Origin: Escherichia phage phiLLS
Strand: one strand, 5' to 3'
Sequence record: NC_047822.1
DNA length: 64,000 bases
Below are positions 5,189 through 54,349 of the stretch, piece by piece. The number at the start of each line of letters is the position of its first letter. The first letter of the stretch is position 1. The notes under the pieces are model-generated. The model was not told the origin of the DNA and did no database searches. It saw only the letters and a list, made by a program, of their open reading frames with translations. The translations under genes and the position numbers were made by a program.

Positions 5189-5729
5189 AAAGTTACCTAG
5201 CCAAGAAAGATTAAAAGAAATACTAATCTATGACCCAGATACTGGTATATTTACTAATAAGGTAAGTCGTGGTAGGGGAGGAAAAGCAGGTTCGCTAGCT
5301 GGATACCTAAGAAAAGACGGCTATATAACTATTAAGATAGATAAAATAGATTATTTAGCGCATAGGTTAGCCTTTCTATACATGACAGGATCAATACCTG
5401 ATTTAATAGACCACAAAAATAGAATTAGGTCAGATAATAGGTGGATAAATCTAAGAGAAGCTACAAGCCAGTCTAATAACAGAAATTGTACCGCATCGAG
5501 TAAATCTGGATATCTAGGTGTACACTGGAACAAACAACTACAGAAATGGCAAGTACAGGTGATTGATAATAATGGTAAAAATATTTACGGGGGTGTTTTT
5601 GACTACTTAGACCTAGAAAGTGCGGTCATAAAGGCTAATGAACTAAGAAAAACACTTCATGGTAACGAAGCAGTTATAGAAGATTTCTATACCAACTATT
5701 ACCCACCAATAGAGGAACTTAATAAGTGA
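5181..5729 (+). CDS. HNH homing endonuclease
   Basis: HNH motif IDHKNRIRSDNRWINLREAT; paralogous to the 1690-2190 protein. Confidence 0.7.
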   Translation: MSKKLPSQERLKEILIYDPDTGIFTNKVSRGRGGKAGSLAGYLRKDGYITIKIDKIDYLAHRLAFLYMTGSIPDLIDHKNRIRSDNRWINLREATSQSNNRNCTASSKSGYLGVHWNKQLQKWQVQVIDNNGKNIYGGVFDYLDLESAVIKANELRKTLHGNEAVIEDFYTNYYPPIEELNK

Positions 5730-6202
5730 GCGTTTTCCACATTTACACAGATGGTGCTTGTAAGTCTAACCCAGGTCCAGGTGCTTGGGGTTTTATTGTC
5801 TATGATGATAACGACGATCGTTTAGGTTCTAAATCTGGATATAGTCCTAAAACTACAAATAATGAGATGGAACTCACGGCTATTGTAGAGGCTCTACGTT
5901 GGTCAGTTAAAAAAGATAATAGACCAATTGTTATCTATACTGACTCTGCTTATTGCAAAAATGGCATGGAAAGTTGGATGTTTTCTTGGCAAAGGAAAGG
6001 CTGGAAGAAAGCAGATGGTGAAGTTCCTCTTAATCTAGAACTTTGGCAGGAAGCATTTAAATTAACACAGCAGTATATCAACTTTCATAATACTAACCCT
6101 ACCTTTATTAAGGTTAAAGGACATTCTGGTATTAGTGGTAATGAAGCTGTAGACGCCTTATGTAACACAGTTATTACTGAAGCTGAAATGGCTGAGATGT
6201 AA
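5726..6202 (+). CDS. rnhA: Ribonuclease H
   Basis: RNase HI signature YTDGACKSNPGPGAWG; 158 aa. Confidence 0.8.
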   Translation: MSVFHIYTDGACKSNPGPGAWGFIVYDDNDDRLGSKSGYSPKTTNNEMELTAIVEALRWSVKKDNRPIVIYTDSAYCKNGMESWMFSWQRKGWKKADGEVPLNLELWQEAFKLTQQYINFHNTNPTFIKVKGHSGISGNEAVDALCNTVITEAEMAEM

Positions 6203-8749: not shown

Positions 8750-9388
8750 ATGACTACTCGTATTTCTAAAACTCGCGCTCTAGCAACTATCAAATCTCTG
8801 GAAGCTAAAATCCGTAAAGCTACTGAACAGCAGCTTCTGATCGCTGTTGGTGAAGGTAAGGATAAAAACCAGGTTGTAGTTGGCGCTGCAATCGAAGTAG
8901 CTGATCTGTCTACTCGTATTAAGACTGATTTCCAGTCTCTGCTGGATATGATGTCCCAGCGTGATTGTATCAAAGCTGCTCTGATTAAAAGCAATGCGGA
9001 AACAATCGTTGAGATTGGCTCTCGTAAGATGACTGTTGCGGAAGCAATTGAAGCTAAGCGTTCTATGGAACTTAAAGCCCAATTGCTGGCTAACATGCGT
9101 AAGCAGTTCCATGCCGCTACGGTTAAGTTTAATACGCAGAAAGCACAGTTTGATGCTAAATATGAGCGTTTGCAGGATAGCATGGCTACCCGCGATAAGA
9201 AAACTTCCGAAGATGAAGTTAAAATGCAGCTCAACCTGCTGGAACTCAAGAATACTCCATTCTTGATTGATCCGCTGGAACTGGAAAAGCTGATTAAGCA
9301 GCATGACGAGGAATACCAGGACTTTGCAACAAATGTTGACTTTGTTCTGTCCGAGTCTAACGCCTCTACCTTCATTGAAGTAGAGTAA
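8750..9388 (+). CDS. Hypothetical protein
   Basis: 212-aa ORF with RBS; helical; the overlapping minus-strand ORFs are judged spurious. Confidence 0.55.
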   Translation: MTTRISKTRALATIKSLEAKIRKATEQQLLIAVGEGKDKNQVVVGAAIEVADLSTRIKTDFQSLLDMMSQRDCIKAALIKSNAETIVEIGSRKMTVAEAIEAKRSMELKAQLLANMRKQFHAATVKFNTQKAQFDAKYERLQDSMATRDKKTSEDEVKMQLNLLELKNTPFLIDPLELEKLIKQHDEEYQDFATNVDFVLSESNASTFIEVE

Positions 9389-9771
9389 TAATTTAAAAGC
9401 TAGTAAATCGGTAGACGAAAGCCCAAGCATCTTACCTCGCAGCAGCGGTTGAAATACGAGGTTAAATAAGACCGCTGACCATACTATAAAATATAATCTA
9501 TTGGAGATTATGTTTATTACACCAGCCTTTTAAGCTGACACGTAAGAACAAAGCGTCGTTGATATTACCGACACAACTTCAAAGATCAACATTTAAGTAT
9601 GAAAGCTGAAAAGTTTAAAGAACTCAAACTTCTAAACTTCTAAAGCTAAAAGATGCAAAGTATTCGTTGATGATTCAAACCCTAGATCAAAGGTACATGG
9701 CTCATAAGATATGGCCTGTGGCGCCTCTAGGCTGTTTATCGGTTTACTAGTTTCACAATTTAAAAATGTAT

Positions 9772-9800
9772 TTGCTAATTTACTAAGTTATCTGTATAAT
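9772..9800 (+). promoter_or_regulatory. T5-type early promoter
   Basis: -35 TTGCTA, 17-bp spacer, -10 TATAAT. Confidence 0.55.
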
Positions 9801-9830
9801 ATATTTTTAAATTGATGAAACGAGGCTATT

Positions 9831-10148
9831 ATGACTTTTCATATTTTGATTGATGATGTGCGTAATCTTCACGGAATGGACATTATCATTCGAACCCCAG
9901 AAGCCGCTGTCGAGTTTCTGAATAAAACTGATACCACAGGCCACTTCGTTTATATGGATAATGACTTGGCTGTAGATGGTATGGAAGGTTATCAAATTCT
10001 TCGTTTACTCTTAGAATTTGGGCAGAGACCAAAGAAAGTGGTACTAGTAACCTCGAACCCAGTAGCTAAGCAACATATGCGTAATGATTTGCTTGACTTA
10101 GGGTACAAAGAAAGCCCCAATCGTGTTGAATATGATTGGCAGGAGTAA
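9831..10148 (+). CDS. Hypothetical protein
   Basis: 105-aa ORF with RBS after promoter. Confidence 0.5.
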   Translation: MTFHILIDDVRNLHGMDIIIRTPEAAVEFLNKTDTTGHFVYMDNDLAVDGMEGYQILRLLLEFGQRPKKVVLVTSNPVAKQHMRNDLLDLGYKESPNRVEYDWQE

Positions 10149-10153
10149 AAAGA

Positions 10154-10603
10154 ATGAAGGCAGCTTTGCTTTTAGTAGCTGCCCTTACCTTCAGCTTTAG
10201 TAGTCAGGCATCGCACGATGCAAAAGAAATAGATTGCATTGCTAAAAATATCTATTTCGAAAGTCGTGGTGAGGGCATAAAGGGAATGACGGCGATTGCA
10301 CACGTTACTAAAAACCGTGTAAACTCCGGTAAATTCCCAGATTCCTACTGTAAAGTAGTATATCAGTCTAACCAGTTCTCTTGGGTATCTAAGAGACCAA
10401 AAGTTGATAAAACTGATGAGGCTTGGCAAACCGCTAAGAATTTAGCTAGAGTGATATACTACGTTGATTTACCACAAGATCCTACACATGGAGCACTATA
10501 CTTCCATAGTGGTAAAGATAAACCTTACTGGACAAAGAAGTTTAAGAAAACAACTAAGATTAAGGGACATACGTTTTATAAACCTGTTGTCACTAAAACT
10601 TAA
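10154..10603 (+). CDS. Secreted SleB-like cell wall hydrolase (Hydrolase_2 family)
   Basis: Signal peptide then KNIYFESRGE...TAIAHVTKNR...QSNQFSW, typical of SleB-type hydrolases. Confidence 0.7.
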   Translation: MKAALLLVAALTFSFSSQASHDAKEIDCIAKNIYFESRGEGIKGMTAIAHVTKNRVNSGKFPDSYCKVVYQSNQFSWVSKRPKVDKTDEAWQTAKNLARVIYYVDLPQDPTHGALYFHSGKDKPYWTKKFKKTTKIKGHTFYKPVVTKT

Positions 10604-10611
10604 AAATTTAC

Positions 10612-10640
10612 TTGCTTAAATACTTAAATTTCCGTATAAT
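10612..10640 (+). promoter_or_regulatory. T5-type early promoter
   Basis: -35 TTGCTT, 17-bp spacer, -10 TATAAT. Confidence 0.55.
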
Positions 10641-10671
10641 ACTTCCATAAATTAATGAGAGGAAGCGAAAT

Positions 10672-10842
10672 ATGAAATCAGTTGTAATTATTGGTGTTAA
10701 CACTCGCGGTATTCGTACTACGAAAATTGTTAAAACTTCTAACGTTGCTGAGATCACTACGAACCCTAAAAAGTTTGATTTCGCCAAAGTCTCAGCAGTT
10801 ATGACAGAACAATCTTTTAACCAAGCGTTAGGAATGAAATAA
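10672..10842 (+). CDS. Hypothetical small protein (56 aa)
   Basis: ATG with GAGGAAG RBS after promoter; stop overlaps next start (TAATG); below ORF-track length cutoff. Confidence 0.45.
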   Translation: MKSVVIIGVNTRGIRTTKIVKTSNVAEITTNPKKFDFAKVSAVMTEQSFNQALGMK

Positions 10843-11285
10843 TGGAAGAGAATATTTTAGATGTTTTGCGTAGAGCTTTGCAGGATTCTAAGTTTAATGG
10901 TTCTGATAAAGAAGTCGCTAAAAGCTATCAGACCATAATCGGGGATCTTCAGCGTATTGATAAAGATTTCATCACTTCTGAACAATTTGTGTCTTATCTC
11001 AAAGCTCAACTAAAAAGCATTAACCAGATGAAAGCTAAACTTCATGGTCAAGATCTTGATAGTTATAGCTTGCAGTCCGCTCAGTATGAATACATTCTAA
11101 ATAAGTGGTTGCAGGAGTATCTGCCTCCTCAGTTATCTGATACTGAGATTCGTAAATACTTTGCAGAATTAGTTAAGCTAAACCCTGGAATTACAAAAGG
11201 TATGCTGATGAAAGCGATTAAGGAAGAATTTCCTGGGCGTTACGATGGTGGTACTGCTGCTCAGATTGCTGGCGAATTTAATTAA
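10842..11285 (+). CDS. Hypothetical protein (possible GatB/YqeY-like domain)
   Basis: 147-aa ORF; weak resemblance to YqeY-like proteins. Confidence 0.45.
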   Translation: MEENILDVLRRALQDSKFNGSDKEVAKSYQTIIGDLQRIDKDFITSEQFVSYLKAQLKSINQMKAKLHGQDLDSYSLQSAQYEYILNKWLQEYLPPQLSDTEIRKYFAELVKLNPGITKGMLMKAIKEEFPGRYDGGTAAQIAGEFN

Positions 11286-39825: not shown

Positions 39826-40385
39826 TGACCTTATATGCACAACAATCTATTCAAGTAGTACCGGATCATGAACTGAACACATGGGATTATAGCTTTAAAG
39901 ATTTAACTGCTACTGTACAATTCAAATCTATGAAGCTAACATTTGCACACACTGACCTTAGAGCCTGTAAAGATCTTGAAGGTAAGCTCGAAGATGCTCG
40001 TAAGATTTTTGGCACGGCTCGCATCCCAGCTGATAACCTGATTAATGCACTGATCGATGCTGGGTACAAACTCGTGAAGACCGAGGTGAACCGCCCTAGT
40101 ACTCCAGTGACTATTAGAGATCCGTGGCAGTCAGGGACAATCTCAATGCTGAATAACTCCGATAAAAGATTAATGTCGGATATGCACAATGTTCCATGTG
40201 GTGGTGTGGTAAGTAGTACGCAGTCATATAAGTTTGGGGAAGATTATGGGCCTTCTATACAGTTGAAACATACTCAAGAAGCTCTTGAGTCTGACATGAA
40301 AAGCGTAGCACCTGCGGATGCTGGAGTTTTTAATAAGTCTGTTTATACTATTCCTATGAACAATCCTGTAAGAGTGGAAGTCTAG
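39825..40385 (+). CDS. Hypothetical protein
   Basis: 186-aa ORF. Confidence 0.5.
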   Translation: MTLYAQQSIQVVPDHELNTWDYSFKDLTATVQFKSMKLTFAHTDLRACKDLEGKLEDARKIFGTARIPADNLINALIDAGYKLVKTEVNRPSTPVTIRDPWQSGTISMLNNSDKRLMSDMHNVPCGGVVSSTQSYKFGEDYGPSIQLKHTQEALESDMKSVAPADAGVFNKSVYTIPMNNPVRVEV

Positions 40386-40521: not shown

Positions 40522-41406
40522 ATGTATAACTTTAAAGATAAACTAAGACAAAATGCTGGTAAAACAAAACCTAAAGAGAACAATAATGTTCCTAATGCCA
40601 AAGTATTATCATTTCCAGAACTGTCTCAAGAAGAAAAAGATAAGTTAGCATTTATGTTTGATGCCCTTCTAGAGCTAAATGGACGTTTATATTCCTCACT
40701 CAATATTAATGAGAAACGTTTAGTAGAGATGTTTTGTAAGCGTTATCAAGTTACTTCAAAGGGCAATTCTTATAAAGAAGGTGAGAAAGCATTCACAGTC
40801 TTAAAGATTAGCGCATATGCACATCGTTTCTTAGTTTATGGGTTACAGATGGAATACTTCACCATCCCATCATTTAGCTCTTTCCATATCTTTGAAGATG
40901 AACGAATGAATATTGATGATCTCTATGGGGATACATACAAATACTCAGGAAGTCCATTCCATGATGCATTAAGGAGTTACCCAACTAACTATTTACCAGT
41001 TAGGGCATCACAAGGTAAAGCTAGCATCTTCGCTGTTTACTCAGGATCTAAAGCATCGGATCTAGAAACTTATATATTTAAAGAGCGTAAATCTGTGCTT
41101 CCAGATGAAGCATTGTATAACAATCCATTGCTTCCAGAAAAAGAACCAGAAAAAGTTGATGTAACCCCACCAATCCCATCTGATTCTCAGTATTTAATTT
41201 ATGAGAAACAAGTTAAGTTATCCCTAGAAATTGGGTTAGTTACACCGCTTGCTGCAGCGTTCATAAATAGATACCTAGAAATCCCAGAAGAGTTCCACCA
41301 ACGTTATAGTACGAATGTTCAGATAACGGATGAACTAATTGCGTTAGCAAAAGATACACCTACAGATACTGAGGCGTATCAAAAAGCATACCAAGAGTTA
41401 CTGTAA
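40522..41406 (+). CDS. Hypothetical protein
   Basis: 294-aa ORF with RBS; last + strand CDS before the repeat region. Confidence 0.55.
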   Translation: MYNFKDKLRQNAGKTKPKENNNVPNAKVLSFPELSQEEKDKLAFMFDALLELNGRLYSSLNINEKRLVEMFCKRYQVTSKGNSYKEGEKAFTVLKISAYAHRFLVYGLQMEYFTIPSFSSFHIFEDERMNIDDLYGDTYKYSGSPFHDALRSYPTNYLPVRASQGKASIFAVYSGSKASDLETYIFKERKSVLPDEALYNNPLLPEKEPEKVDVTPPIPSDSQYLIYEKQVKLSLEIGLVTPLAAAFINRYLEIPEEFHQRYSTNVQITDELIALAKDTPTDTEAYQKAYQELL

Positions 41407-41918
41407 GATCCTGCATGTCTCGGTGCACAATACCTGTACCGAGACAGAAATACAAACTCTCGTTGACAGATAGCTAAATGTATGTTATCATAACTCTATG
41501 AGTTAATAGAATTAACCATTTAGAGTTGCCACACAGAAGGTGTGGTGGTTCAGTAATTTAAAATTACTAACTTGTAGCGGAGGATACGGAGCGACAGGAC
41601 AAGTTAATAAGTAATTTAATATAAATTGCTAGAAACATCACGAGACCTTCTGGCGGGGGCAAAGCTCTATATGAGAACCCTGGGGGATCTTATATTTAAA
41701 ATAAAAGTAAAACTTTTGACCACATAATTTACATTCAAGATGATACACCTGTTGCCGCTCTTCTGTTAGGATGGCACAACACTTTCCTAGAAACTCCAGA
41801 GTTCTCACGAGATACCACTCTTTCTAGGAACATATACTAGGCGGTTAATACAGGGCGGTTATAGGGAGGGCGGTTATTTCTAGAAGACATTTTTTGAAAA
41901 CACATTTCCAGAAATTAC

Positions 41919-42519
41919 TGTCGGATTTGCACACTGATATTCTAGAAATTTATGGTAGGATTTGCACAAATGCCTAAGTTTTTAGGAACTCTTACTCTCC
42001 TGAAAATAGCAGCATTATTTCGGGCCGAAGGCCCATGATTGCCTGAGTTTTTAGAGCCACAGAAATTTTCACTTGTCAAGCTATTTTGCCCCATTTTGCT
42101 AATAAAATTTCGCTTTTTCTGCACCTATCTCAAATTAACCCAAGTTATCTCACATCTCCTCCAAAATCCCCGCGGATCAGGTGCTCCGCACCAAACATGC
42201 GCTACATCCTTCTAGCCCCCAAATTTCTCTCACTCTCTCATCTTCTCCTCAAACCCACACAATCACACACCCTCCAATCGAAGTCACAAAAATCTTGTCG
42301 GATTCGCACATCTTAATCCTAGAAAAACCGTGTCGGATTTGCACATACTCCACAGGATTGATGCGCAGCATCGGATTGCTGGAGTTTTTGGAAAAATTCA
42401 TTGTCGGATTTGCACACTATAAAAATTTTTCGGGTCGGATTTGCACACTACCAAAAATTGTCGGATTTGCACATACGTGCCCGCACGTAACACCCGTGGA
42501 GCAATGTCGGATTTGCACA
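41919..42519. repeat. Array of at least 6 direct repeats TGTCGGATTTGCACA with degenerate copies
   Basis: Copies at 41919, 42332, 42402, 42435, 42459, 42505; variants at 41957 and 42296; irregular spacing. Confidence 0.8.
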
Positions 42520-42520
42520 A

Positions 42521-42546
42521 AAGCGCAGGGCAATTGCCCTGCGCTA
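42521..42546. repeat. Perfect palindrome agcgcagggcaattgccctgcgct
   Basis: 11-bp arms around a central AATT. Confidence 0.8.
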
Positions 42547-42770
42547 AATACGAATGATAATAAGAATCATTCTCATTTAAAAAGCGGAATGAGAATGATA
42601 ATAATTCGCATTTAGAAAGTGAAATGAGAATCAATCTCATTTAAGAAAGGGAATGAGAACTATTCAAAAAGTGAAATGATTCTCATTTAGGAAAGGAAAT
42701 GATTATCGGTTAGATAGTGGAATGCGAATGATAATGATTTGCATTTAAGAATGGAAGTGAGAAACACTGT
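42547..42770. repeat. Array of about 8 imperfect AT-rich palindromic units (Fur-box-like)
   Basis: Units contain AATGATAAT / GATAATGAT / ATTCTCATT; spacing 21-40 bp, each ending CATTTAAGAAAG-like. Confidence 0.7.
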
Positions 42771-42845
42771 TATTTAAGTTATCCACAGACTTATCAACAG
42801 CACGATTTGACTTGACAGAATCCTAGCCATTTTGAAGCGTTATTA

Positions 42846-42886
42846 ACAGACTTATCCACAGCTTATCCTACTGTATAAATATACAG
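42846..42886. repeat. Inverted repeat, left arm (41 bp, contains a DnaA-box-like TTATCCACA)
   Basis: 40/41 match to the reverse complement of 45894-45934. Confidence 0.85.
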
Positions 42887-43001
42887 TATTCCTACGTAGT
42901 GAATAATTCTAATATACCGCTAAAACGTCCTGAATCGCATTCTAACGCGTTTAATTTTGGTGGGGATACTAAAACAAGGGGGTATTTAACTGGAGGCATG
43001 G

Positions 43002-43023
43002 AAAAACGGGGAGCTAATCCCCG
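43002..43023 (-). terminator. Rho-independent terminator for the minus-strand cassette
   Basis: Minus-strand hairpin cggggattagctccccg followed by TTTTT. Confidence 0.55.
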
Positions 43024-43139
43024 TCGTTCTCAGAGTAGCGGGCAACCGTTACGCTTTGCCCACTCCCGCCACTCATCTTGATGTCTAGATTTGCGACGGC
43101 GTACTAAAAACCGCTTATACCAGTGATTAAACCATCGTT

Positions 43140-43343
43140 TCATAAACCATCCTCCGGTAATTGATGCGTGATCTTTTCCTCTTCCCCATAGGAATCGACC
43201 AAATGCTGATAATAACCATCGTGATCATAAATCACTTTATCATACTCGCCACGCTCGACCGCTTGCCGGTTTTCTGGCGTATCGGGCACGTAAAAAACGT
43301 CAACCATTGTACTGATTTTGGTTACAACAATTTTATTGCTCAT
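43140..43343 (-). CDS. Hypothetical acidic protein
   Basis: 67-aa minus-strand ORF inside the inverted-repeat-bounded segment. Confidence 0.45.
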   Translation of the reverse strand: MSNKIVVTKISTMVDVFYVPDTPENRQAVERGEYDKVIYDHDGYYQHLVDSYGEEEKITHQLPEDGL

Positions 43344-45626: not shown

Positions 45627-45893
45627 TTTCTTGTCTCCCTCGTTAATCGGTGAGTAAATGATAAAGGTATTTTCTTTCTAGGGGCAAATATTATTTTACC
45701 TTTTTATTTTCCTTGCCTAGCGCCTAGTTTTATGCTAACCGCGCAGCGGTACAGTAAAGAGCAAAACACGGTGAAGCCGCTAGGGCGGCGCATTGAGGCT
45801 TTACTTTAATATTACCCCCACTGCATTTAGCTCGTTAGAAAGCGATTTAGGCCGCTTAAAATTGATTGCAGTTGTTAACACTACCTTTCTACC

Positions 45894-45934
45894 CTGTATA
45901 TTTATACAGTAGGATAATCTGTGGATAAGTCTGT
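45894..45934. repeat. Inverted repeat, right arm (41 bp)
   Basis: Reverse complement of 42846-42886 with one mismatch; contains CTGTGGATAAG. Confidence 0.85.
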
Positions 45935-46440
45935 GTAAAAGTCCTTATATCGCCGCCTATCGTGTCAAATCATTTTGTGCTGTGGATAACGTTGGGGATA
46001 ACTTAAATGATAGTGGTTCTCACTCAGGCCGATAGTTTCTTATAGTTATTATTTCTATCGGTTACGATTTCTTATAGTTATTATTTCTCATTAATTTATA
46101 AGTATATTATATATTATGGAATAGTTAGTTGGCTAATGAGATTTTCCGTGATTAATAGTCTGCTAATAGTTTAAGCCGTTACAATCCACCAGCATGATTA
46201 TCGTTCTAGCAATTATTAGTCTGCTATCTTTCCGATGCATACTAACAAATAAAAGTCAATTAATTTATTTCATAAAATAAGTAGTTATCCACTGGAAAAT
46301 AAAAGTCAAGTGGATAACTAGGAAAATTTCATTTTTGCTTCTGGGGATAAGTTATCAACAAGGCTAGAATGCGCCTAAAACGCCCTACAACGCAGTAAAG
46401 TTTTTAGCCATCCCATCATAAGGGGATAAGCCGTTTATCG
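45920..46440. promoter_or_regulatory. Cluster of DnaA-box-like 9-mers (TTATCCACA family)
   Basis: GTGGATAAG 45922, TGTGGATAA 45981, GGGGATAAC 45995, TTATCCACT 46285, GTGGATAAC 46310, GGGGATAAG 46343 and 46432, TTATCAACA 46352. Confidence 0.5.
46036..46088. repeat. Tandem direct repeat, 2 x 21 bp (TTTCTTATAGTTATTATTTCT)
   Basis: Identical copies at 46036-46056 and 46068-46088. Confidence 0.8.
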
Positions 46441-47546: not shown

Positions 47547-47954
47547 ATGACTAACGTTAAAACCGCAAAATTCGCATGGAATGAAGAAAACACTCAGAAA
47601 GCTGTTTCCATGTACCAGCAGTTAATCAATGAAAACGGTTTAGATTTCGCAAATAGCGACGGCCTGAAAGAGATTGCAAAAGCAGTAGGCGCGGCTTCTC
47701 CCGTATCCGTTCGCTCAAAATTGACCAGCGCGAAAGCGTATCAGAAAAGCGATAAGCCGCGCAAAGTTGGCGGCGGCAGTTCAATCCGCAAAGCTCACTA
47801 TGTACGCGTTATTGCAAAACATGCCATTGATTCCGGCATTATCAAAGACGCTGACGATCTGGCATCACTGGAAAGCGCAAAACTGGAAACGCTGGACGCA
47901 GTAGCACAACTGTTAGGCGTTGCCGATGAAGTAAAACAAGCCGCAGGCGAATAA
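47547..47954 (+). CDS. Pre-early A2-like protein (putative)
   Basis: 135 aa with AGGAG RBS, immediately upstream of the A1-like gene; assignment from synteny and size only. Confidence 0.4.
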   Translation: MTNVKTAKFAWNEENTQKAVSMYQQLINENGLDFANSDGLKEIAKAVGAASPVSVRSKLTSAKAYQKSDKPRKVGGGSSIRKAHYVRVIAKHAIDSGIIKDADDLASLESAKLETLDAVAQLLGVADEVKQAAGE

Positions 47955-48306: not shown

Positions 48307-49977
48307 ATGGTTATTTCCGCAGAAAAACAAACCCAGATCCTCAATCTTGCCGCTGATTTCAATTTCTATGGTAAACGTCTGCGCGCTACTAAACTGGAAG
48401 TTTGTGACGATATATCAAAAGCGGTTTACGATACTGCAAAACATTCCACCGCGATTTGTGACTGGTTGGAAGCAAATAAACCAGCGAAACCAAAAGCGGC
48501 GAAAGTAGCAAAAGCCATTAAAAACGATGACCGCCCTGAAGCCGCCGGAGTTATTTCTAGCACGGTGGAGCAATGGGAAGTAAAGCAGGGCAACCGCTTC
48601 ATTATCACATCAATCCAGAACAACACGTTCCCGCATAAAAACTTTTTAGCCTCGCTCGAGCAATATGCCCAGTTTATTGGCGCTGATTTGCTTGTTAGCA
48701 AGTTTATTTATAACAAAAACGGTTTTCAAAATGGGGAAGGCGCGGACGGAATAAAATACGATTCCGCGTTTGACAAATATATCTGCAATAAGAACGTATT
48801 TTTAAACAATCGCCGTTTTGCTTTCATGGCTGAGATTAATGTTTTGCCCACCGCAGATTATCCGCTATCTGGATTCGCTGAAACTGCAACGGCTTTAAAT
48901 ATTGAGGGTCTGGCAATTGGGGCGGCTAAAATCACCGCCGAAAGCGTGCCAGCTTTAAAAGGTGAAGTAGTGCGCCGCATGTATTCAACGGGAACGGCAA
49001 CGCTAAAAAACTATATTCAGCAAAAAGCAGGGCAAAAAGCGGAGGCGCTACATAACTTTGGGGCGCTGATTGTTGAGTTCGACGAAGACGGTGAATTTTT
49101 TGTTCGCCAGCTTGAAACGATGGATGAAAGCGGCGTTTTTTACGATTTGAATATTTGCGCTACTCCCGCCGGATGCTATGAAACATCGGGGCATGTTTTA
49201 GGCTTGCAATATGGTGACGTCCACGCTGAAAAACTAGATGAAGAGTGCGCCGCAGCGTCATGGGGACACGGTGACACCTACGGGCTTGTGGATATTCTCA
49301 AGCCAAAATATCAATTCGTCCATGACGTGCATGATTTTACATCACGCAACCATCACAACCGCGCCTCTGGTGTATTCCTAGCAAAACAATACGCCGCCGG
49401 ACGTGATAAGGTTCTGGATGATCTTATCGATACGGGGCGCGTACTGGAAGCAATGGAGCGCGATTTCTCGCAAACAATCATTGTTGAATCTAACCATGAT
49501 CTGGCGTTATCTCGTTGGCTTGATGATCGTAATGCTAACATTAAAGACGACCCAGCAAACGCGGAACTATATCACCGCCTTAATGCTGCAATTTACGGAG
49601 CTATTGCAGAAAAAGACGACACTTTCAACGTGCTAGATTATGCGCTGCGCAAGGTTGCAGGCTGCGAGTTTAACGCTATTTTCCTAACGACTGACCAATC
49701 ATTTAAAATTGCAGGCATCGAGTGCGGCGTACACGGTCACAATGGCATAAACGGCAGTCGTGGCAATCCGAAACAGTTCAAGAAATTGGGCAAATTAAAC
49801 ACGGGGCACACTCATACCGCCAGCATTTACGGCGGCGTATATACCGCTGGCGTGTCTGGTAGTCTGGACATGGGCTATAATGTTGGCGCGTCAAGCTGGA
49901 CGCAAACGCATGTTATTACCTATGCAAACGGTCAGCGCACTTTGATTGACTTTAAAAACGGTAAATTTTTCGCGTAA
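48307..49977 (+). CDS. Pre-early A1-like protein, metallophosphatase-fold nuclease
   Basis: 556 aa; metallophosphatase motifs GDVH, HDVHD, ESNHD. Confidence 0.6.
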   Translation: MVISAEKQTQILNLAADFNFYGKRLRATKLEVCDDISKAVYDTAKHSTAICDWLEANKPAKPKAAKVAKAIKNDDRPEAAGVISSTVEQWEVKQGNRFIITSIQNNTFPHKNFLASLEQYAQFIGADLLVSKFIYNKNGFQNGEGADGIKYDSAFDKYICNKNVFLNNRRFAFMAEINVLPTADYPLSGFAETATALNIEGLAIGAAKITAESVPALKGEVVRRMYSTGTATLKNYIQQKAGQKAEALHNFGALIVEFDEDGEFFVRQLETMDESGVFYDLNICATPAGCYETSGHVLGLQYGDVHAEKLDEECAAASWGHGDTYGLVDILKPKYQFVHDVHDFTSRNHHNRASGVFLAKQYAAGRDKVLDDLIDTGRVLEAMERDFSQTIIVESNHDLALSRWLDDRNANIKDDPANAELYHRLNAAIYGAIAEKDDTFNVLDYALRKVAGCEFNAIFLTTDQSFKIAGIECGVHGHNGINGSRGNPKQFKKLGKLNTGHTHTASIYGGVYTAGVSGSLDMGYNVGASSWTQTHVITYANGQRTLIDFKNGKFFA

Positions 49978-50517: not shown

Positions 50518-51237
50518 ATGAAGATTACCCGTAATTTCCCGCATGTTTCCCGCGTCATGATTTGGGATCTGGATGGCACTATCGTTAACTCATTCCATCG
50601 CGTAGCGCCTTGCTTTGATAGTGAGGGCAATCTAGATCTAAATAAGTATAAAAATGAAGCGTGTAAACATGCTTTGATAATGCAAGATACACTGTTACCG
50701 CTTGTTACCTATATGCGCCAGTGCATGAATGACGCCAACACGTTAAACATTATTTGTACCGCTCGACTAATGAGCAAATCAGATTACTATTACCTACGGA
50801 AGCAAGGGCTGCGAGGGCGTGGGGGTAGCAATATCCGCGTATTTTCCCGCGATACACTGCACAAATATTTTGAAGCTGATAAGGTTAGCGAAATATACCA
50901 CAGCAAAGACGCTATATATAAAAGCCACTATTTTGAGTTATTTAAGCAATTATATCCGAACGCTGATTTCACGATGATTGATGATCATAAAGGCGTGCTA
51001 TCAGCGGCGGCATCATACGGATTTAAAACGCTGGACGCGCAAGCCGTTAACGATATTCTATCGATTGGGGTTACATTGATAGGTGAAACCTTTATCGATG
51101 AATCTCTTGAGGATGATAATGATTATCAGTTCCTGGCCGACCGCCTGCAATTATGTTGGGAAGGTATGACCGAAGAAGAACGCGCAGAATATAGTTGCAG
51201 CCCGCAACAATATATTGAGAAATTAAAAGTTGCGTAA
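50518..51237 (+). CDS. HAD-superfamily 5'-deoxyribonucleotidase-like protein (dmp-like)
   Basis: HAD motif I (IWDLDGTIV) near the N-terminus; 239 aa. Confidence 0.5.
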   Translation: MKITRNFPHVSRVMIWDLDGTIVNSFHRVAPCFDSEGNLDLNKYKNEACKHALIMQDTLLPLVTYMRQCMNDANTLNIICTARLMSKSDYYYLRKQGLRGRGGSNIRVFSRDTLHKYFEADKVSEIYHSKDAIYKSHYFELFKQLYPNADFTMIDDHKGVLSAAASYGFKTLDAQAVNDILSIGVTLIGETFIDESLEDDNDYQFLADRLQLCWEGMTEEERAEYSCSPQQYIEKLKVA

Positions 51238-51401
51238 TAATTAAAGTTGAAATTGTTTCACCTTGCAATTAAAATGGTTGCAGGGTGAAACAGTTAGCAT
51301 GGTAATAGTAACGGGGGTGGCGGTTAGCAGACTAAGTATTTTCGCCGGAGGCAGTGAGCACATCCTCATGTGTAATCTTATGAAATTTCGAGATTTCCAA
51401 A

Positions 51402-51831: not shown

Positions 51832-52239
51832 TTACGTTTCTCCGATAGTAAGGTTTCGATTCTAGCTAAGTGATTATCTAAGATACATTGCCCAATAATC
51901 ACAACCCCCAGTAGTGCAATAATTACCCATTCCATTAAATCCACCCCGCCATAGCTGCTAACCAAAAACCTACGAAGATTAGGAATAATACAAAACCAAA
52001 TCCGTAAATATTAATCCACGCTTCGTACACTTCTCCGCGTCTGTTCTTTCTTTTATTTGACATATCTTTCGTACTCCCGTAAATGTGATTTTTGAAATAT
52101 TCTATAATTTGTGCACAACCAACCGTGCCTGTGGACCCCTAGAAGGGCTTCTACTTTTCTTATATAGTGTTTTCTGCCAGTATACCGTCCAAGAAATAAA
52201 AAATTTAGTTTACTTGGATGTCTTTTTGCTTTATACTAA

Positions 52240-52506
52240 TTACAAGTAATTAGATTGCTCTAGTTTAAATTTACAATCACCGTATTTAAGGTCAAACTGA
52301 CTGAGATCCCACCACCCAAACTTAGTACGGAGCTGTACTACTGGAAAGCGATCTCCCTTAATACGAACTTTTTGAACCTTGAGGCCGTAATGTTCCTCTC
52401 CCGCACCACCAAAAGATTTTACAAATCCCGTACAAAATGGTTTGGGGGCAGGTGCACAACCAGATAACATAACTGCGGCAACTAGTGCAATCACAAACTT
52501 TTTCAT
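52240..52506 (-). CDS. Lipoprotein, putative receptor-blocking lytic-conversion protein (Llp-like)
   Basis: Signal peptide with lipobox (LSGC); divergent from the adjacent receptor-binding protein gene. Confidence 0.55.
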   Translation of the reverse strand: MKKFVIALVAAVMLSGCAPAPKPFCTGFVKSFGGAGEEHYGLKVQKVRIKGDRFPVVQLRTKFGWWDLSQFDLKYGDCKFKLEQSNYL

Positions 52507-52591
52507 ATTTATCTCTCCATTTCTAATTTATGAATCTATTATAGCAAAATAGAGAGATGAAAGCAAATACATTTTTATAATAGGAGATTAT

Positions 52592-54349
52592 ATGGGTTTT
52601 TTCGCTGGAAAATATAGCGATGGTAAGACCGTACTATCTTTAAATACTGAATCTGGTGGTGACATTAATCGTCACTATAGTCCAAATAATAATAGTATTT
52701 TTCATAGTGATATGCCATTTGTCCTAGTTGATGGTACTTATGAGGCAGGATTAGGAGATGCCGGGAATGGGTTTTTTGTCTGTCAGATGCCCTCTGACAT
52801 AATAAATATTAAATCCAACGACCCGGGTAGAGTTATACTAACTGCTATTGAGATTAATGGTACTCATAGGGCTTTTCTTAATGGTACTCAAAGTAAGGTT
52901 GGCCAAACTATAGTTGCTACTCAAGCAGATCCCTTTAGATCTTTTGCTAGTGTTTCTCAAACCAGTGGATTTGCATTTGGTAATAGTCTAGCATCTGGCA
53001 CTTATAATTATAATCCCTCTCTAGGGCATGAAGAATCTATCTCTAGAAATGGTACTGGAGGTACTACGTTACATAGTACCTATCACGGTATAGTTAGGCC
53101 CGGTGCGGGAGCTCCTGTAGGTATTACTGTTGCACAAGCTTTTGAGCAATTGGGTTTCCCTACTAATAGTAGCACAGTACCTGTAGATGGGAATAACCCG
53201 TACTATTGGGATCCCGGATGGATGTCGCCTCTAGGAGCAGCGCATAGAGGGCATGATTGGTTTTATGTCTGCAATTCTAATATACGTGGATATGGTGGAG
53301 TTAGACAAGGGCTCCCAGGTAATGTAAATACTATGTACCACGACGGTGGGAACAGGTTTGTTTGTAGGGGATCTACTACTAATCTAGCTAACCAGTCGGG
53401 TGACTCTACAATACTACAGGATTGGTATAATATAACTCCTACTAAGGTTATTTGGTATGTTCTTAATTTAAGGTACTCGAATGGTGGAATGAGTATTTCA
53501 GGTAATCCCTTTACTGGTTCTGATATTCTTATATCTCCTTCTAATTTCATAATTAAAGGGGTAAGTCTCCCTAATACCGGGTATAAATTTATTAATCAGA
53601 ATGCTTTTGGTAACTTAGGTTATCGTCCTGATATGGAGTATATAGGGAATAACGCAGCGTATACTGGAGCCTTCGGAGATACCACTGCAAGGTGTGAACT
53701 TGTAGGATCTAGTAATGGAGGGTTGTGGTCTCCTGTAGATTATGGAGGGGCTAAATCCCAAATTAGCATTTACAAATTTGGAGCAGGTAAACAGTGGTAT
53801 GTAAACTCTAACGATAATACTATTGGTAATGAGCATGGGGTTGTTTGGGGACCCTCAGCAGTTCCACTGCGACTTTTTGGTGGAAATGTAGGTAGTTCCT
53901 ATATGGGAGATGATATTACTCCCCACTATCCAGGAACGGGTGATAGATACGTTGGTTTATCAACTATTGGGCTAGGTATACCAGGCGGAAATGCTACAGT
54001 AATTCTTACTACTGAAGTTATATCAGGTAATCTTAATTGTGCGGGTGTTCCAGCTAATACATGGAATAATGGTGTGTTTCAAGTGCAAGGAAGAAGAGCG
54101 TATAGCTATAGCGGCGGGGATGCAATATTCCACCAGATTTTAACGCTACCTGTGGGCTATCTAGTACCTTTTCATACTACATCTGCTTTTAGATACACGC
54201 CTAACAATGCTCTTAGTAGAAACAGTTTTATATATACCGTTAAAAATCTAGGAAATGGAAATGTAGAGTTAGGAGTAGTTATGCATGTGAGTTTGGGTAG
54301 CGCAGTTTTCCTACCTAGATTAAGAGTAACAGTTCAACGCCTTACCTAA
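52592..54349 (+). CDS. Putative receptor-binding tail protein (pb5/Oad-like position)
   Basis: 585 aa, Gly/Asn/Ser/Thr-rich; strong AGGAGA RBS; divergent from the lipoprotein gene. Confidence 0.5.

What the first reader, a model, noticed from the sequence alone, without database searches (positions are those of the whole stretch)
41445..42900. 1.5-kb ORF-free region packed with three distinct repeat classes
Between the last early gene and the minus-strand cassette there is no convincing CDS. Instead: a run of TCTAGAA-type motifs and a triple GGCGGTTA repeat (41.78-41.88 kb), at least 6 copies of TGTCGGATTTGCACA (41.92-42.52 kb), a perfect 26-bp palindrome, about 8 AT-rich palindromic units, then DnaA-box-like 9-mers. 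This density of protein-binding-like sites is what one expects of an injection-stop / terminal-repeat boundary locus in T5-like phages, but the exact repeat sequences and their function are not explained by any annotated feature here.
Basis: partly seen in the sequence, partly recalled or inferred. Interest (0 to 1): 0.65.

Follow-up and report, generated by a model that had tools for sequence, protein, structure and literature searches.

The report
Phage T5 injection-stop repeat region
This repeat-packed, gene-free stretch is the already described "injection stop signal" and inner terminal-repeat boundary of a T5-like phage: a rediscovery of a known locus whose mechanism is still unsolved, with a few conserved motifs (notably a near-perfect LexA box) that the T5 papers I could read do not mention.

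Summary
Window 41407-43139 has no conserved ORF. It contains 8 same-strand copies of TGTCGGATTTGCACA, 3x GGCGGTTA, a cluster of TTCTAGAA-type palindromes, a 24-bp (not 26-bp) perfect palindrome, 7-8 AT-rich palindromic units and two pairs of DnaA boxes.

The region aligns collinearly at about 88% identity with phage T5 (NC_005859) 9.3-10.96 kb. There, 9140-10149 is annotated "injection stop signal (iss)". The left terminal repeat ends at 10219, which corresponds to window 42053|42054. A major nick at 9748/9749 corresponds to window 42522|42523. The repeat families appear to be those catalogued for T5 and 25 relatives as "Repeat Region 3" (Davison 2020).

How the stop works remains unknown in the literature (PNAS 2026).

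I saw several features that the accessible papers do not mention:
- a near-consensus LexA operator exactly 10 nt from a DnaA box, present in both copies of the 146-nt inverted repeat and conserved from enteric to Vibrio T5-like phages;
- three Fur-box-like units;
- the most G-poor tract in the window;
- a conserved promoter followed by a long hairpin on the early-gene side.

Verdict: already known, modest interest.

The parts
41416..41446 (+). Stable hairpin directly after the stop codon of the T5.018 homologue (no U-run follows it).
   Evidence: I12; -19.2 kcal/mol, z -5.9.
41463..41491 (+). Sigma-70-type promoter TTGACA-17-TATCAT with an extended TG. It points toward the terminal repeat.
   Evidence: 11 of 12 matches. 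The hexamers are conserved in all 27 aligned loci even where the flanking sequence is not homologous. A similar promoter is present in Klebsiella phage IME260. It is not annotated in T5.
41521..41669 (+). Long imperfect hairpin, either a putative structured non-coding RNA or a DNA inverted repeat. It belongs to a 240-bp accessory segment that co-occurs with the T5.018 homologue.
   Evidence: z -6.65 on the + strand, against -4.75 on the - strand; 3 compensatory pairs and several G-U-preserving changes; present in 10 of 27 loci. Non-homologous hairpins occupy the same position in L004 and IME260.
41785..41947 (.). Cluster of five TTCTAGAA-type palindromes at 41785, 41822, 41878, 41906 and 41940. 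Further copies lie at 41627 and 42317.
   Evidence: (Poisson P about 8e-7).
41840..41876 (+). Three copies of GGCGGTTA, 180-215 bp outside the inner terminal-repeat boundary. The fourth and only other copy in the window (51319) lies about 35 bp inside the outer end of the repeat.
   Evidence: The two right-hand copies are nearly invariant in 27 loci.
41919..41968 (+). Iteron-like 15-mers (TGTCGGATTTGCACA family, probably 'DRD' in the T5 literature), copies 1-2, on the unique (non-repeat) side.
   Evidence: T5 has 9 copies, matching the '9 copies of DRD' in Davison.
42021..42062 (.). Inner terminal-repeat boundary at 42053|42054 (TTTTTA|GAGCCACAG), preceded on the unique side by the hairpin GGGCCGAAGGCCC and the motif GATTGCCTGAGTTTTTA. 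This is the most conserved 100 bp of the whole non-coding region.
   Evidence: Mapping to the T5 repeat end at 10219. Eight contigs end at or within two bases of this point (six exactly). Conservation is 0.96-0.98; variants are tabulated.
42125..42295 (+). G-poor, C-rich tract (G 7.6%, C 39%). It contains the most negative GC skew of the 64-kb window. On a + strand transcript it would look like a Rho-utilisation (rut) tract (inference).
   Evidence: skew -0.86 at 42189; about 6e-5 of all 90-nt windows are as extreme as the one at 42205. Similar tracts can be read in IME260, L058 and the Vibrio phages.
42296..42526 (+). Iteron-like 15-mers, copies 3-8, inside the terminal repeat. They all share one orientation and their spacing is irregular (35, 71, 31, 26, 46).
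   Evidence: There are 7-9 copies in all 27 loci, always on one strand.
42522..42545 (.). 24-bp perfect palindrome AGCGCAGGGCAATTGCCCTGCGCT. By homology the T5 major nick falls between A42522 and G42523 on the + strand (A|GCGC).
   Evidence: I8. T5 nick annotation with coordinate mapping. The left arm AAAGCGC is invariant in 26 of 27 loci (the other has TAAGCGC; AGCGC itself is invariant in all 27), and symmetric (compensatory) stem variants occur.
42547..42760 (.). Array of 7-8 AT-rich palindromic units (half-sites AATGAGAAT / ATTCTCATT), including an 81-nt two-copy repeat. The estimated first-step-transfer shear point (7.9% of the genome) falls here. Three of the units resemble Fur boxes.
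   Evidence: D1, D3, I1-I4. Fur consensus matches of 16/19, 15/19 and 14/19 at 42556, 42591 and 42724; 0 of 500 shuffles reach this. The shear point is from Davison, mapped.
42756..42901 (.). One arm of a 146-nt inverted repeat ('IRD'spacerIRC'' in the T5 literature). It carries two DnaA-box pairs (42779-42799, 42840-42860) and a LexA-like box.
   Evidence: 75% complementary to 45879-46024.; box variants stay within TTAT[CT][CA]ACA, and the GAC spacer is invariant in one pair and in 23 of 27 in the other.
42869..42888 (.). Near-consensus LexA (SOS) operator TACTGTATAAATATACAGTA, exactly 10 nt after the last DnaA box.
   Evidence: 1 mismatch to the 20-nt consensus; 0 expected; 26 bits, above every E. 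coli operator in a position weight matrix built from sites recalled from memory. CTGT-N8-ACAG is kept in 25 of 27 loci and in the Klebsiella, Vibrio and uncultured lineages.
42999..43032 (-). Intrinsic terminator (GC-rich hairpin plus U-run) that ends the rightward pre-early operon. It is homologous in position to the T5 terminator at 9275-9296.
   Evidence: -15.9 kcal/mol; T5 annotation.
45879..46024 (.). Partner arm of the inverted repeat ('IRCspacerIRD', Repeat Region 2). It carries DnaA boxes at 45920-45989 and a second LexA-like box at 45892-45911.

Best explanation
SHOWN. The locus is the orthologue of the phage T5 'injection stop signal' region (Repeat Region 3) together with the inner boundary of the roughly 9.3-kb terminal repeat. 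It lies between the terminator of the rightward pre-early operon (about 43000-43030) and the first early gene (which ends at 41406). It is a composite of several elements. In order from inside the repeat outward they are:
- a LexA-like operator and two DnaA-box pairs, on one arm of a 146-nt inverted repeat whose partner lies 3 kb away;
- an AT-rich palindrome array, where the 7.9% shear point falls;
- the Pu|GCGC nick palindrome;
- six iteron-like 15-mers;
- a C-rich tract;
- the repeat boundary at 42053|42054;
- two more 15-mers;
- TTCTAGAA palindromes and 3x GGCGGTTA;
- an early-side promoter followed by a long hairpin.

INFERRED mechanism (about 35% for the stop itself). When the left end of the phage DNA enters the cell, host proteins that are already present bind the invariant host-type sites, which at that moment lie just inside the membrane. 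DnaA is the candidate Davison proposed. The conserved top-scoring operator suggests LexA as well. The two inverted copies may be bridged. This nucleoprotein block arrests further DNA transfer. The lineage-specific elements (the 15-mer iterons and AT-rich units) would be bound by phage pre-early proteins, namely the DNA-binding dimer A2 with A1, to release the block.

The outer third of the locus (41.85-42.1 kb) most likely serves concatemer cutting and terminal-repeat duplication. The early-side promoter, hairpin and C-rich tract most likely form a non-coding transcription unit that Rho terminates before it reads into the repeat.
For: Identity:
- collinear alignment at about 88% identity to T5 9297-10959, which carries the iss, terminal-repeat and nick annotations;
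- synteny with dmp-A1-A2 and the late genes;
- contig ends at the homologous boundary;
- the same repeat inventory as described for T5 and 25 relatives.

Functional constraint:
- the non-coding region is conserved in 27 loci, with peaks at 42000-42100 and 42750-42900;
- variation in the DnaA boxes is concentrated at the degenerate or already deviant positions;
- CTGT-N8-ACAG is kept while the centre of the box varies;
- the nick palindrome shows compensatory symmetric changes.

Host-type versus phage-type sites:
- the DnaA-pair plus LexA composite recurs in enteric, Klebsiella, Vibrio and uncultured lineages;
- in IMG/VR the composite occurs 48 times, 47 of them apparently in T5-like contigs (judged from contig size and the sites inspected), with one clear off-target in coding sequence;
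- the iterons differ by lineage: TGTCGGATTTGCACA, GTCGGTTTTGCACTA and AGAATCCGCACTCACA;
- the AT-rich units are replaced by a different motif in L058.

Literature: the stop needs no new protein synthesis, resumption needs A1 and A2, and A2 is a DNA-binding dimer.
Against: - No published test of Davison's DnaA model turned up in the accessible literature.
- T5-type phages are known lytic contaminants of recA1 laboratory strains (my own knowledge). LexA cleavage therefore cannot be required for resumption of transfer.
- The LexA-like box does not clearly overlap a promoter.
- The Fur resemblance is modest (14-16 of 19) in AT-rich palindromes, and it is absent from one lineage.
- The shear point (7.9%) is only an approximate figure.
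- The older papers (Heusterspreute 1987, Wang 2005, Davison 2015) could not be read. Some of the 'unmentioned' motifs may be described there.
Confidence: 0.85

Rival explanations
1. The outer half of the locus (the iteron-like 15-mers that straddle the boundary, the invariant 42000-42100 block and the GGCGGTTA repeats) is mainly a packaging and concatemer-processing centre. Terminase would recognise repeats near both ends of the single terminal-repeat copy in a concatemer, cut at 42053|42054 and at about 51360, and the repeat would be duplicated. This does not exclude the injection-stop role of the inner half.
For: - The physical genome end falls at 42053|42054.
- The flanking 100 bp are the best conserved of the region, especially on the unique side.
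- GGCGGTTA occurs only four times in 64 kb, all on one strand: three near the inner boundary and one about 35 bp from the outer end.
- Some relatives carry an AATGAGA...TCTCATT palindrome next to the left genome end.
- An analogy from my own knowledge: in phage T7 the terminal repeat is flanked by arrays of short repeats, and processing involves a promoter and a hairpin intermediate.
Against: No terminase binding data exist. The two cut sites share little sequence beyond CCAC. Six of the eight iterons lie well inside the repeat, next to the nick and the AT-rich array.
Confidence: 0.35
2. The locus is an iteron-type replication origin. DnaA boxes, an AT-rich unwinding region and direct iterons would be activated by the nearby promoter.
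For: The order DnaA boxes (42779-42860), AT-rich array (42547-42760), direct 15-mers (42296-42526) resembles plasmid and P1-type origins. A strong promoter at 41463 reads toward it. The 15-mer contains ATTTGCACA, one mismatch from the DnaA-box consensus (read from the sequence).
Against: - Electron-microscopy studies place the T5 origins near the genome centre, and the replication genes are not expressed during the first-step stage (Davison).
- The iteron spacing (35, 342, 35, 71, 31, 26, 46) is not helically phased.
- No initiator gene is adjacent.
- A second, inverted copy of the DnaA module lies 3 kb away.
- There is no similarity to any plasmid or E. coli sequence.
Confidence: 0.08
3. The stop is purely structural. 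The inverted repeats and palindromes would form cruciforms or a knot that jams in the tail or membrane channel without any sequence-specific protein.
For: The region has a very high density of palindromes and a 146-nt inverted repeat. Symmetry-preserving changes occur in the nick palindrome. The idea is raised in the literature.
Against: Complete ejection occurs in vitro into FhuA proteoliposomes, so the DNA itself does not jam (Davison). The conserved positions match protein-site consensus sequences (TTATNCACA, CTGT-N8-ACAG) rather than merely preserving pairing.
Confidence: 0.1
4. The region is ordinary intergenic DNA or hides small genes, and the repeats are incidental.
For: Some database records annotate 'hypothetical proteins' under the match.
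Against: The ORFs are not conserved in frame and have no Pfam family; the 144-aa ORF also has no PHROG family. The curated T5 record annotates no CDS there. The repeat counts far exceed chance. The non-coding region is better conserved than the neighbouring pre-early genes (Davison).
Confidence: 0.01

Closest known systems
Phage T5 injection stop signal / 'Repeat Region 3' at the inner end of the left terminal repeat (NC_005859 misc_feature 9140-10149; Heusterspreute et al. 1987; Wang et al. 2005; Davison 2015, 2020)
   Same: It occupies the same genomic position. It is collinear at about 88% identity. It has the same order of elements: terminator, palindrome, DnaA-box pairs with a 3-bp spacer, AT-rich repeats, the nick palindrome, the 15-mer direct repeats, the repeat boundary and the GGCGGTTA repeats. 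It has the same inverted partner in Repeat Region 2.
   Different: The differences are allelic only. There are 8 rather than 9 copies of the 15-mer, because a deletion of about 76 bp removes the ninth copy. There is one extra 29-bp AT-rich unit. Both arms of the nick palindrome are perfect, whereas one arm of the T5 palindrome is imperfect. The centre of the LexA-like box is flipped. No record in the phage collection is more than 93% identical over this stretch.
Iteron-type replication origins (P1 oriR, pSC101, RK2 oriV)
   Same: DnaA boxes next to an AT-rich segment and an array of direct 15-mers.
   Different: There is no adjacent initiator gene, no helical phasing and no sequence similarity to plasmids. 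The DnaA module is duplicated in inverted orientation. Published electron microscopy places the T5 origins elsewhere.
E. coli SOS operators (LexA boxes such as tisAB and umuDC; sequences recalled from memory)
   Same: The site matches the 20-nt consensus TACTG(TA)5CAGTA at 19 of 20 positions and scores above all the recalled chromosomal operators.
   Different: It sits in non-coding DNA of a strictly lytic phage and has no clear overlapping promoter. It is always 10 nt from a DnaA box and is duplicated in an inverted repeat.
Phage T7 concatemer junction (terminal repeat flanked by short-repeat arrays, with promoter- and hairpin-dependent processing; my own knowledge)
   Same: Arrays of short direct repeats flank a direct terminal repeat, and a promoter and a long hairpin lie close to the boundary.
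   Different: The repeat is about 9.3 kb rather than 160 bp. There is no sequence homology. The role in T5 is untested.

Membership tests
T5-type injection stop signal / Repeat Region 3 | Lies at the inner end of the long direct terminal repeat, downstream of the pre-early genes dmp, A1 and A2. | tested here: met
   dmp is at 50518-51237, A1 at 48307-49977 and A2 at 47547-47954. The T5 left end maps to about 51360 and the repeat end to 42053|42054.
T5-type injection stop signal / Repeat Region 3 | An untranslated region of more than 1 kb. | tested here: met
   41407-43139 has no conserved ORF and no protein family.
T5-type injection stop signal / Repeat Region 3 | A block of about 131 bp (IRD'spacerIRC') with two pairs of DnaA or DnaA-like boxes, each pair separated by 3 bp. 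| tested here: met
   The pairs are at 42779-42799 and 42840-42860, each with a GAC spacer.
T5-type injection stop signal / Repeat Region 3 | An inverted partner (IRCspacerIRD) a few kb toward the left end, in Repeat Region 2. | tested here: met
   45879-46024 is 75% complementary over 146 nt, with 2977 nt between the arms.
T5-type injection stop signal / Repeat Region 3 | The AT-rich DRE/DRC repeats, about 9 DRD direct repeats and the palindromes, in the same order as in T5. | tested here: met
   The alignment with T5 is collinear. There are 8 copies of the 15-mer against 9 in T5. My assignment of the literature names to individual repeats is inferred, because the published figure is not available.
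T5-type injection stop signal / Repeat Region 3 | A major single-strand nick (at 7.9% of the genome) at a Pu|GCGC site. | tested here: inconclusive
   The homologous position is A42522|G42523 followed by CGC. The physical nick cannot be seen in sequence data.
T5-type injection stop signal / Repeat Region 3 | Acts in cis to arrest DNA transfer until A1 and A2 are made. | not testable with these tools
   This needs infection experiments.
Iteron-type replication origin | Direct iterons with helical phasing, bound by an initiator encoded next to them. | tested here: not met
   The spacings are 35, 342, 35, 71, 31, 26 and 46. The flanking genes are a protein of unknown function and small pre-early proteins. 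There is no similarity to plasmids.
Iteron-type replication origin | DnaA boxes adjacent to an AT-rich unwinding element. | tested here: met
   DnaA boxes at 42779-42860 lie next to a segment of 70% A+T at 42540-42765.
LexA (SOS) operator | A 20-nt palindrome with CTGT-N8-ACAG close to the consensus TACTG(TA)5CAGTA. | tested here: met
   The site at 42869-42888 has 1 mismatch and the site at 45892-45911 has 3. They score 26 and 22.5 bits.
LexA (SOS) operator | Overlaps a promoter that it represses, and is bound by LexA. | tested here: inconclusive
   Only a weak promoter-like match (9 of 12, 42880-42907) overlaps it. Binding cannot be tested here.
Fur box | A 19-bp site close to GATAATGATAATCATTATC. 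| tested here: inconclusive
   Matches of 16/19, 15/19 and 14/19 at 42556, 42591 and 42724 exceed composition-matched shuffles. However, the units are AT-rich palindromes, and a different motif replaces them in lineage L058.

The most novel reading that the evidence does not exclude
The conserved core of the T5 injection-stop element would be a landing pad for host proteins rather than a DnaA site alone. It consists of a DnaA-box pair fused at a fixed 10-nt distance to a top-affinity LexA operator (with or without Fur-like boxes). It is duplicated in inverted orientation around the rightward pre-early operon, and it is conserved from enteric to Vibrio T5-like phages. On this reading, pre-existing LexA together with DnaA is the long-sought host factor that arrests, or times, the two-step DNA transfer. 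A lesser novel reading is that a positionally conserved promoter-plus-long-hairpin non-coding RNA, followed by a rut-like C-rich tract, insulates the terminal repeat or helps process it.
Probability: 0.12. Interest if true: 0.75.

Novelty: already known. Interest (0 to 1): 0.28.

Why it matters
Two-step DNA transfer by T5 has been an open problem for more than 50 years, and this locus is its cis-acting element. As a scan result it is a rediscovery: the locus is annotated in the T5 reference genome and its repeats have been compared across 25 relatives.

What may help specialists is the sorting of the motifs into two groups. One group is of host type and recurs in every lineage examined, from enteric to Vibrio phages: the DnaA pairs, and a near-perfect LexA operator that the accessible T5 papers do not mention. 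The other group changes with phage lineage: the 15-mer iterons and the AT-rich units. This split gives concrete candidates that can be tested genetically, using lexA, dnaA and fur hosts, A2 binding assays and site-directed phage mutants. The analysis also places the physical repeat boundary of this phage at 42053|42054.

Tried and rejected
- Rfam scan of 41200-43200: only a sub-threshold chance hit.
- Hidden genes: six ORFs tested. None has a Pfam family, the 144-aa ORF has no PHROG family, and the frames are not conserved.
- Plasmid or host origin of the repeats: no match in 72,556 plasmids or 5,426 E. coli genomes.
- Distant A1 homologues (40-49% identity; L041-L046): none carries DnaA, LexA or iteron motifs in the DNA held. 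Their 15-bp tandem repeats lie elsewhere and look coding, so they were uninformative.
- An SOS-triggered release model (LexA cleavage restarts transfer): considered and set aside, because T5-type phages grow on recA1 laboratory strains (my own knowledge).
- A G-quadruplex in the G-rich complement of 42125-42295: there are only three runs of three or more G, so this was rejected by reading the sequence.
- Matching the 15-mer to host regulator sites (CRP, PurR/LacI family, TyrR, ArgR) by eye: no convincing fit. It is one mismatch from a DnaA box, which is noted but not relied on.
- The simple terminator scan missed the pre-early terminator near 43010. Folding confirmed it.
- Davison 2015, Heusterspreute 1987 and Wang 2005 are not in the library. 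The supplements of Davison 2020 are not held. Exact name-to-repeat assignments, and any prior mention of LexA, could therefore not be checked.
Full report
**Observation**

The stretch was read directly and its repeats were extracted.

- The + strand gene upstream ends at 41406. It is 294 aa, belongs to phrog_8583 and is the homologue of T5.018.
- The first - strand gene ends at 43140. It is 67 aa and belongs to phrog_6973.
- The gene-free interval is therefore 41407-43139, slightly longer than reported.
- Six mechanical ORFs inside it (56-144 aa) have no Pfam family, and the 144-aa ORF has no PHROG family. They are interrupted or frame-shifted in 9 to 25 of 27 related phages.

- Eight same-strand copies of TGTCGGATTTGCACA. 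Chance expectation is 0.28 per window, and 0 of 100 shuffles reached the observed count.
- Three copies of GGCGGTTA, with a fourth and last copy at 51319.
- Five TTCTAGAA-type palindromes in 163 bp, Poisson P about 8e-7.
- A perfect palindrome at 42522-42545 that is 24 bp, not 26.
- Seven to eight AT-rich palindromic units at 42547-42760.
- Two pairs of DnaA boxes at 42779-42799 and 42840-42860.

**Identity**

A megablast search found 454 phage records, nearly all from Salmonella, Escherichia or Klebsiella T5-like phages. The best identity over this stretch was 93%.

Against the T5 reference NC_005859 the window is reverse-complemented and carries one collapsed terminal repeat. The late genes (portal, terminase) lie at about 54.3-57 kb. 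The T5 left end maps to about 51360. The genes dmp, A1 and A2 lie at 50.5-47.5 kb, and the early genes lie below 41.4 kb.

Window 41380-43000 aligns collinearly with T5 9297-10959 at about 88% identity. The T5 record annotates exactly this stretch with three features:

- 'injection stop signal (iss)' at 9140-10149;
- the left terminal repeat, ending at 10219;
- a 'major DNA single-chain interruption' at 9748/9749 on the complementary strand.

Coordinate transfer puts the repeat end at window 42053|42054. It puts the nick between A42522 and G42523 on the + strand, at the edge of the 24-bp palindrome (A|GCGC). Eight IMG/VR T5-like contigs that carry explicit terminal repeats begin at, or within two bases of, the homologue of 42054, six of them exactly, reading GAGCCACAG....

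**Literature**

Davison (bioRxiv 10.1101/866236) describes this 'Repeat Region 3' for T5 and 25 relatives. The description covers:

- IRD'spacerIRC' with paired DnaA boxes separated by 3 bp;
- the inverted partner IRCspacerIRD in Repeat Region 2;
- two 66-bp DRE repeats, four DRC repeats, nine DRD repeats and the DRA copies;
- many palindromes.

Davison also proposes that membrane-bound DnaA arrests DNA transfer. [quoted passage not shown] They state that the mechanism of second-step transfer 'remains poorly understood' (PMC13250531).

In the window the 146-nt arm at 42756-42901 pairs with 45879-46024, with 2977 nt between the arms, and DnaA boxes are present on that partner.

**Comparative anatomy**

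I aligned 26 IMG/VR loci retrieved through the A1 protein with the window.

- Conservation peaks at 42000-42100 (0.96-0.98), which straddles the repeat boundary, and at 42750-42900 (0.94-0.97), the DnaA module.
- Variation in the DnaA boxes is concentrated at the degenerate fifth position or at positions that already deviate from the consensus. The GAC spacer is invariant in one pair and present in 23 of 27 loci in the other.
- The left arm of the nick palindrome, AAAGCGC, is invariant in 26 of 27 loci; the other has TAAGCGC, so the nick context A|GCGC is invariant in all 27. Several stem variants are symmetric (AGAGC...GCTCT; GGGGGGC...GCCCCC), which indicates selection on symmetry.

More distant lineages keep the same architecture. 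These are Klebsiella Sugarlandvirus IME260, Vibrio Pogseptimavirus phages and an uncultured lineage, L058/L093. The parts behave differently across them:

- The DnaA pair and the adjoining palindrome recur in every lineage.
- The 15-mer iteron changes from TGTCGGATTTGCACA to GTCGGTTTTGCACTA in L058 and to AGAATCCGCACTCACA in the Vibrio phages.
- The AT-rich units are shared by the enteric, Klebsiella and Vibrio phages, but GCTAAATTAGC-type units replace them in L058.

I infer that host proteins read the invariant sites and that phage-encoded proteins read the lineage-specific ones.

**Features the accessible T5 literature does not mention**

(i) A LexA operator. The palindrome at 42869-42888, TACTGTATAAATATACAGTA, is one mismatch from the 20-nt LexA consensus. 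A second copy (3 mismatches) lies at 45892-45911 in the inverted partner. None is expected by chance.

- In a position weight matrix built from E. coli SOS boxes that I recalled from memory, the two sites score 26 and 22.5 bits. The best leave-one-out score among the known operators is 24.1, and the next-best site in the window scores 16.6.
- CTGT-N8-ACAG is kept in 25 of 27 loci while the centre varies.
- The composite TTATCCACA-N10-CTGT-N8-ACAG occurs 48 times in IMG/VR. Judged from contig size and the sites I inspected, 47 of these lie in T5-like contigs; one is a clear off-target in coding sequence.
- 'LexA', 'SOS' and 'Fur' do not appear in Davison 2020. No paper in the library links LexA with T5. 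The older papers could not be read.

(ii) Fur-like boxes. Three AT-rich units match the Fur box at 16, 15 and 14 of 19 positions, which exceeds composition-matched shuffles. This is a weak lead, because the units are AT-rich palindromes and one lineage lacks them.

(iii) A G-poor tract. 42125-42295 contains the most negative GC skew of the window (G 7.6%, C 39%, skew -0.86).

(iv) A promoter and hairpin. A sigma-70-type promoter at 41463-41491 matches 11 of 12 positions and has an extended TG. It is conserved in all 27 loci and in IME260, and it points at the repeat.

- It is followed by a long hairpin at 41521-41669. The z-score is -6.65 on the + strand and -4.75 on the - strand.
- The hairpin shows three compensatory pairs and several changes that preserve G-U pairs.
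- Non-homologous hairpins occupy the same position in other lineages.
- The T5-type hairpin segment co-occurs with the T5.018 homologue in 10 of 27 loci.

A + strand transcript from this promoter would be untranslated and then C-rich. That is the profile of a Rho substrate, so it may be terminated before it reads into the repeat. This is inference.

**Mechanism**

The identity, the boundaries and the conservation are shown. The following steps are inferred.

- At the pause, the DnaA and LexA module lies a few hundred bp inside the cell, relative to the approximate 7.9% shear point (about 42570-42600).
- Pre-existing host proteins could bind the module, and possibly bridge it to its inverted copy, and so block further transfer.
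- A2, a DNA-binding dimer, together with A1 would act on the lineage-specific repeats to restart transfer (literature).
- The block at 41.85-42.1 kb probably serves concatemer cutting and duplication of the repeat. The evidence is the position of the genome end, the invariant unique-side flank, and GGCGGTTA copies near both ends of the repeat.

I give the host-protein brake about 35%.

I rate an origin-of-replication reading low. The iterons are not phased and no initiator gene is adjacent. The DnaA module is duplicated in inverted orientation. Published electron microscopy places the origins elsewhere, and there is no similarity to plasmids or to the host.

A purely structural jam is disfavoured, because ejection goes to completion in vitro.

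An SOS-triggered restart is unlikely, because T5-type phages grow on recA1 strains (my own knowledge).

**Verdict**

The finding is real and correctly interpreted, but it is the known T5 injection-stop and terminal-repeat boundary locus. Novelty is 'already known' and interest is modest (0.28).

The most novel reading not excluded by the evidence is that LexA, through a conserved top-affinity operator fused to the DnaA boxes, takes part in the transfer arrest. I give this a probability of about 0.12. It would be of high interest if true.

Noticed in passing
window 42869-42888 and 45892-45911: Near-consensus LexA (SOS) operators, one in each arm of the 146-nt inverted repeat and always 10 nt from a DnaA box. 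They are conserved in enteric, Klebsiella, Vibrio and uncultured T5-like lineages. Among phages the centre of the box flips between AAAT and ATTT, which are reverse complements. This suggests gene conversion between the two inverted copies. The accessible T5 papers do not mention these sites.
   Followed up: yes
window 41463-41669: A conserved sigma-70-type promoter pointing toward the terminal repeat, followed by a long hairpin with compensatory changes. It may be an unannotated structured RNA. Other lineages have a non-homologous hairpin at the same place. The T5-type version co-occurs with the T5.018 homologue in 10 of 27 loci.
   Followed up: partly
window 42125-42295: The most G-poor, most negatively GC-skewed tract of the 64-kb window (G 7.6%, C 39%), just inside the repeat boundary. 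Similar tracts are visible in distant relatives. It may be a Rho-utilisation tract for the transcript from the promoter at 41463.
   Followed up: partly
window 42556-42574, 42591-42609, 42724-42742: Three AT-rich units resemble Fur boxes (16, 15 and 14 of 19 positions). The Vibrio relatives carry a perfect AATGATAATCATT core. A different motif replaces these units in lineage L058.
   Followed up: partly
window 51109-51133: Two overlapping Fur-box-like 19-mers (3 mismatches each) inside the dmp coding region.
   Followed up: no
window 51319-51360: The outer (left) end of the terminal repeat maps to about 51360. The window therefore holds a single collapsed repeat between the late and early genes. 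The fourth GGCGGTTA copy lies about 35 bp inside this end. Some relatives instead carry GGGCGGTAATGAGACTCATTCTCAT there, which reuses the AT-rich palindrome motif of the injection-stop region.
   Followed up: partly
window 52104-54312: This stretch has no nucleotide similarity to the T5 receptor-binding protein (pb5/oad) and lipoprotein (llp, labelled lpp in the T5 record) region, although both flanks match. The phage probably uses a receptor other than FhuA.
   Followed up: no
window 46025-46254: The HNH endonuclease gene hegG, which splits Repeat Regions 1 and 2 in T5 (T5 5411-5929), is absent here. About 678 bp of T5 is replaced by about 230 bp. Davison reports that most T5-like phages lack it too.
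   Followed up: partly
window 41968-41986, 42037-42055, 42374-42392: A three-copy motif, TGCCTRAGTTTTTAG. The middle copy ends, to within two bases, at the repeat boundary. Related copies (GCCTAAGTTTTAAGC) occur in Klebsiella phage IME260.
   Followed up: no
window 40175-40188: An isolated iteron-like 14-mer (GTCGGATATGCACA, one mismatch) inside an early gene.
   Followed up: no
L044 14072-14250, L045 14097-14210: Metagenomic contigs with distant A1 homologues (43-49% identity) carry tight 15-bp tandem repeats (TGCACCACGAAGGTC) downstream of A1. They lack the DnaA, LexA and iteron motifs in the DNA held.
   Followed up: no
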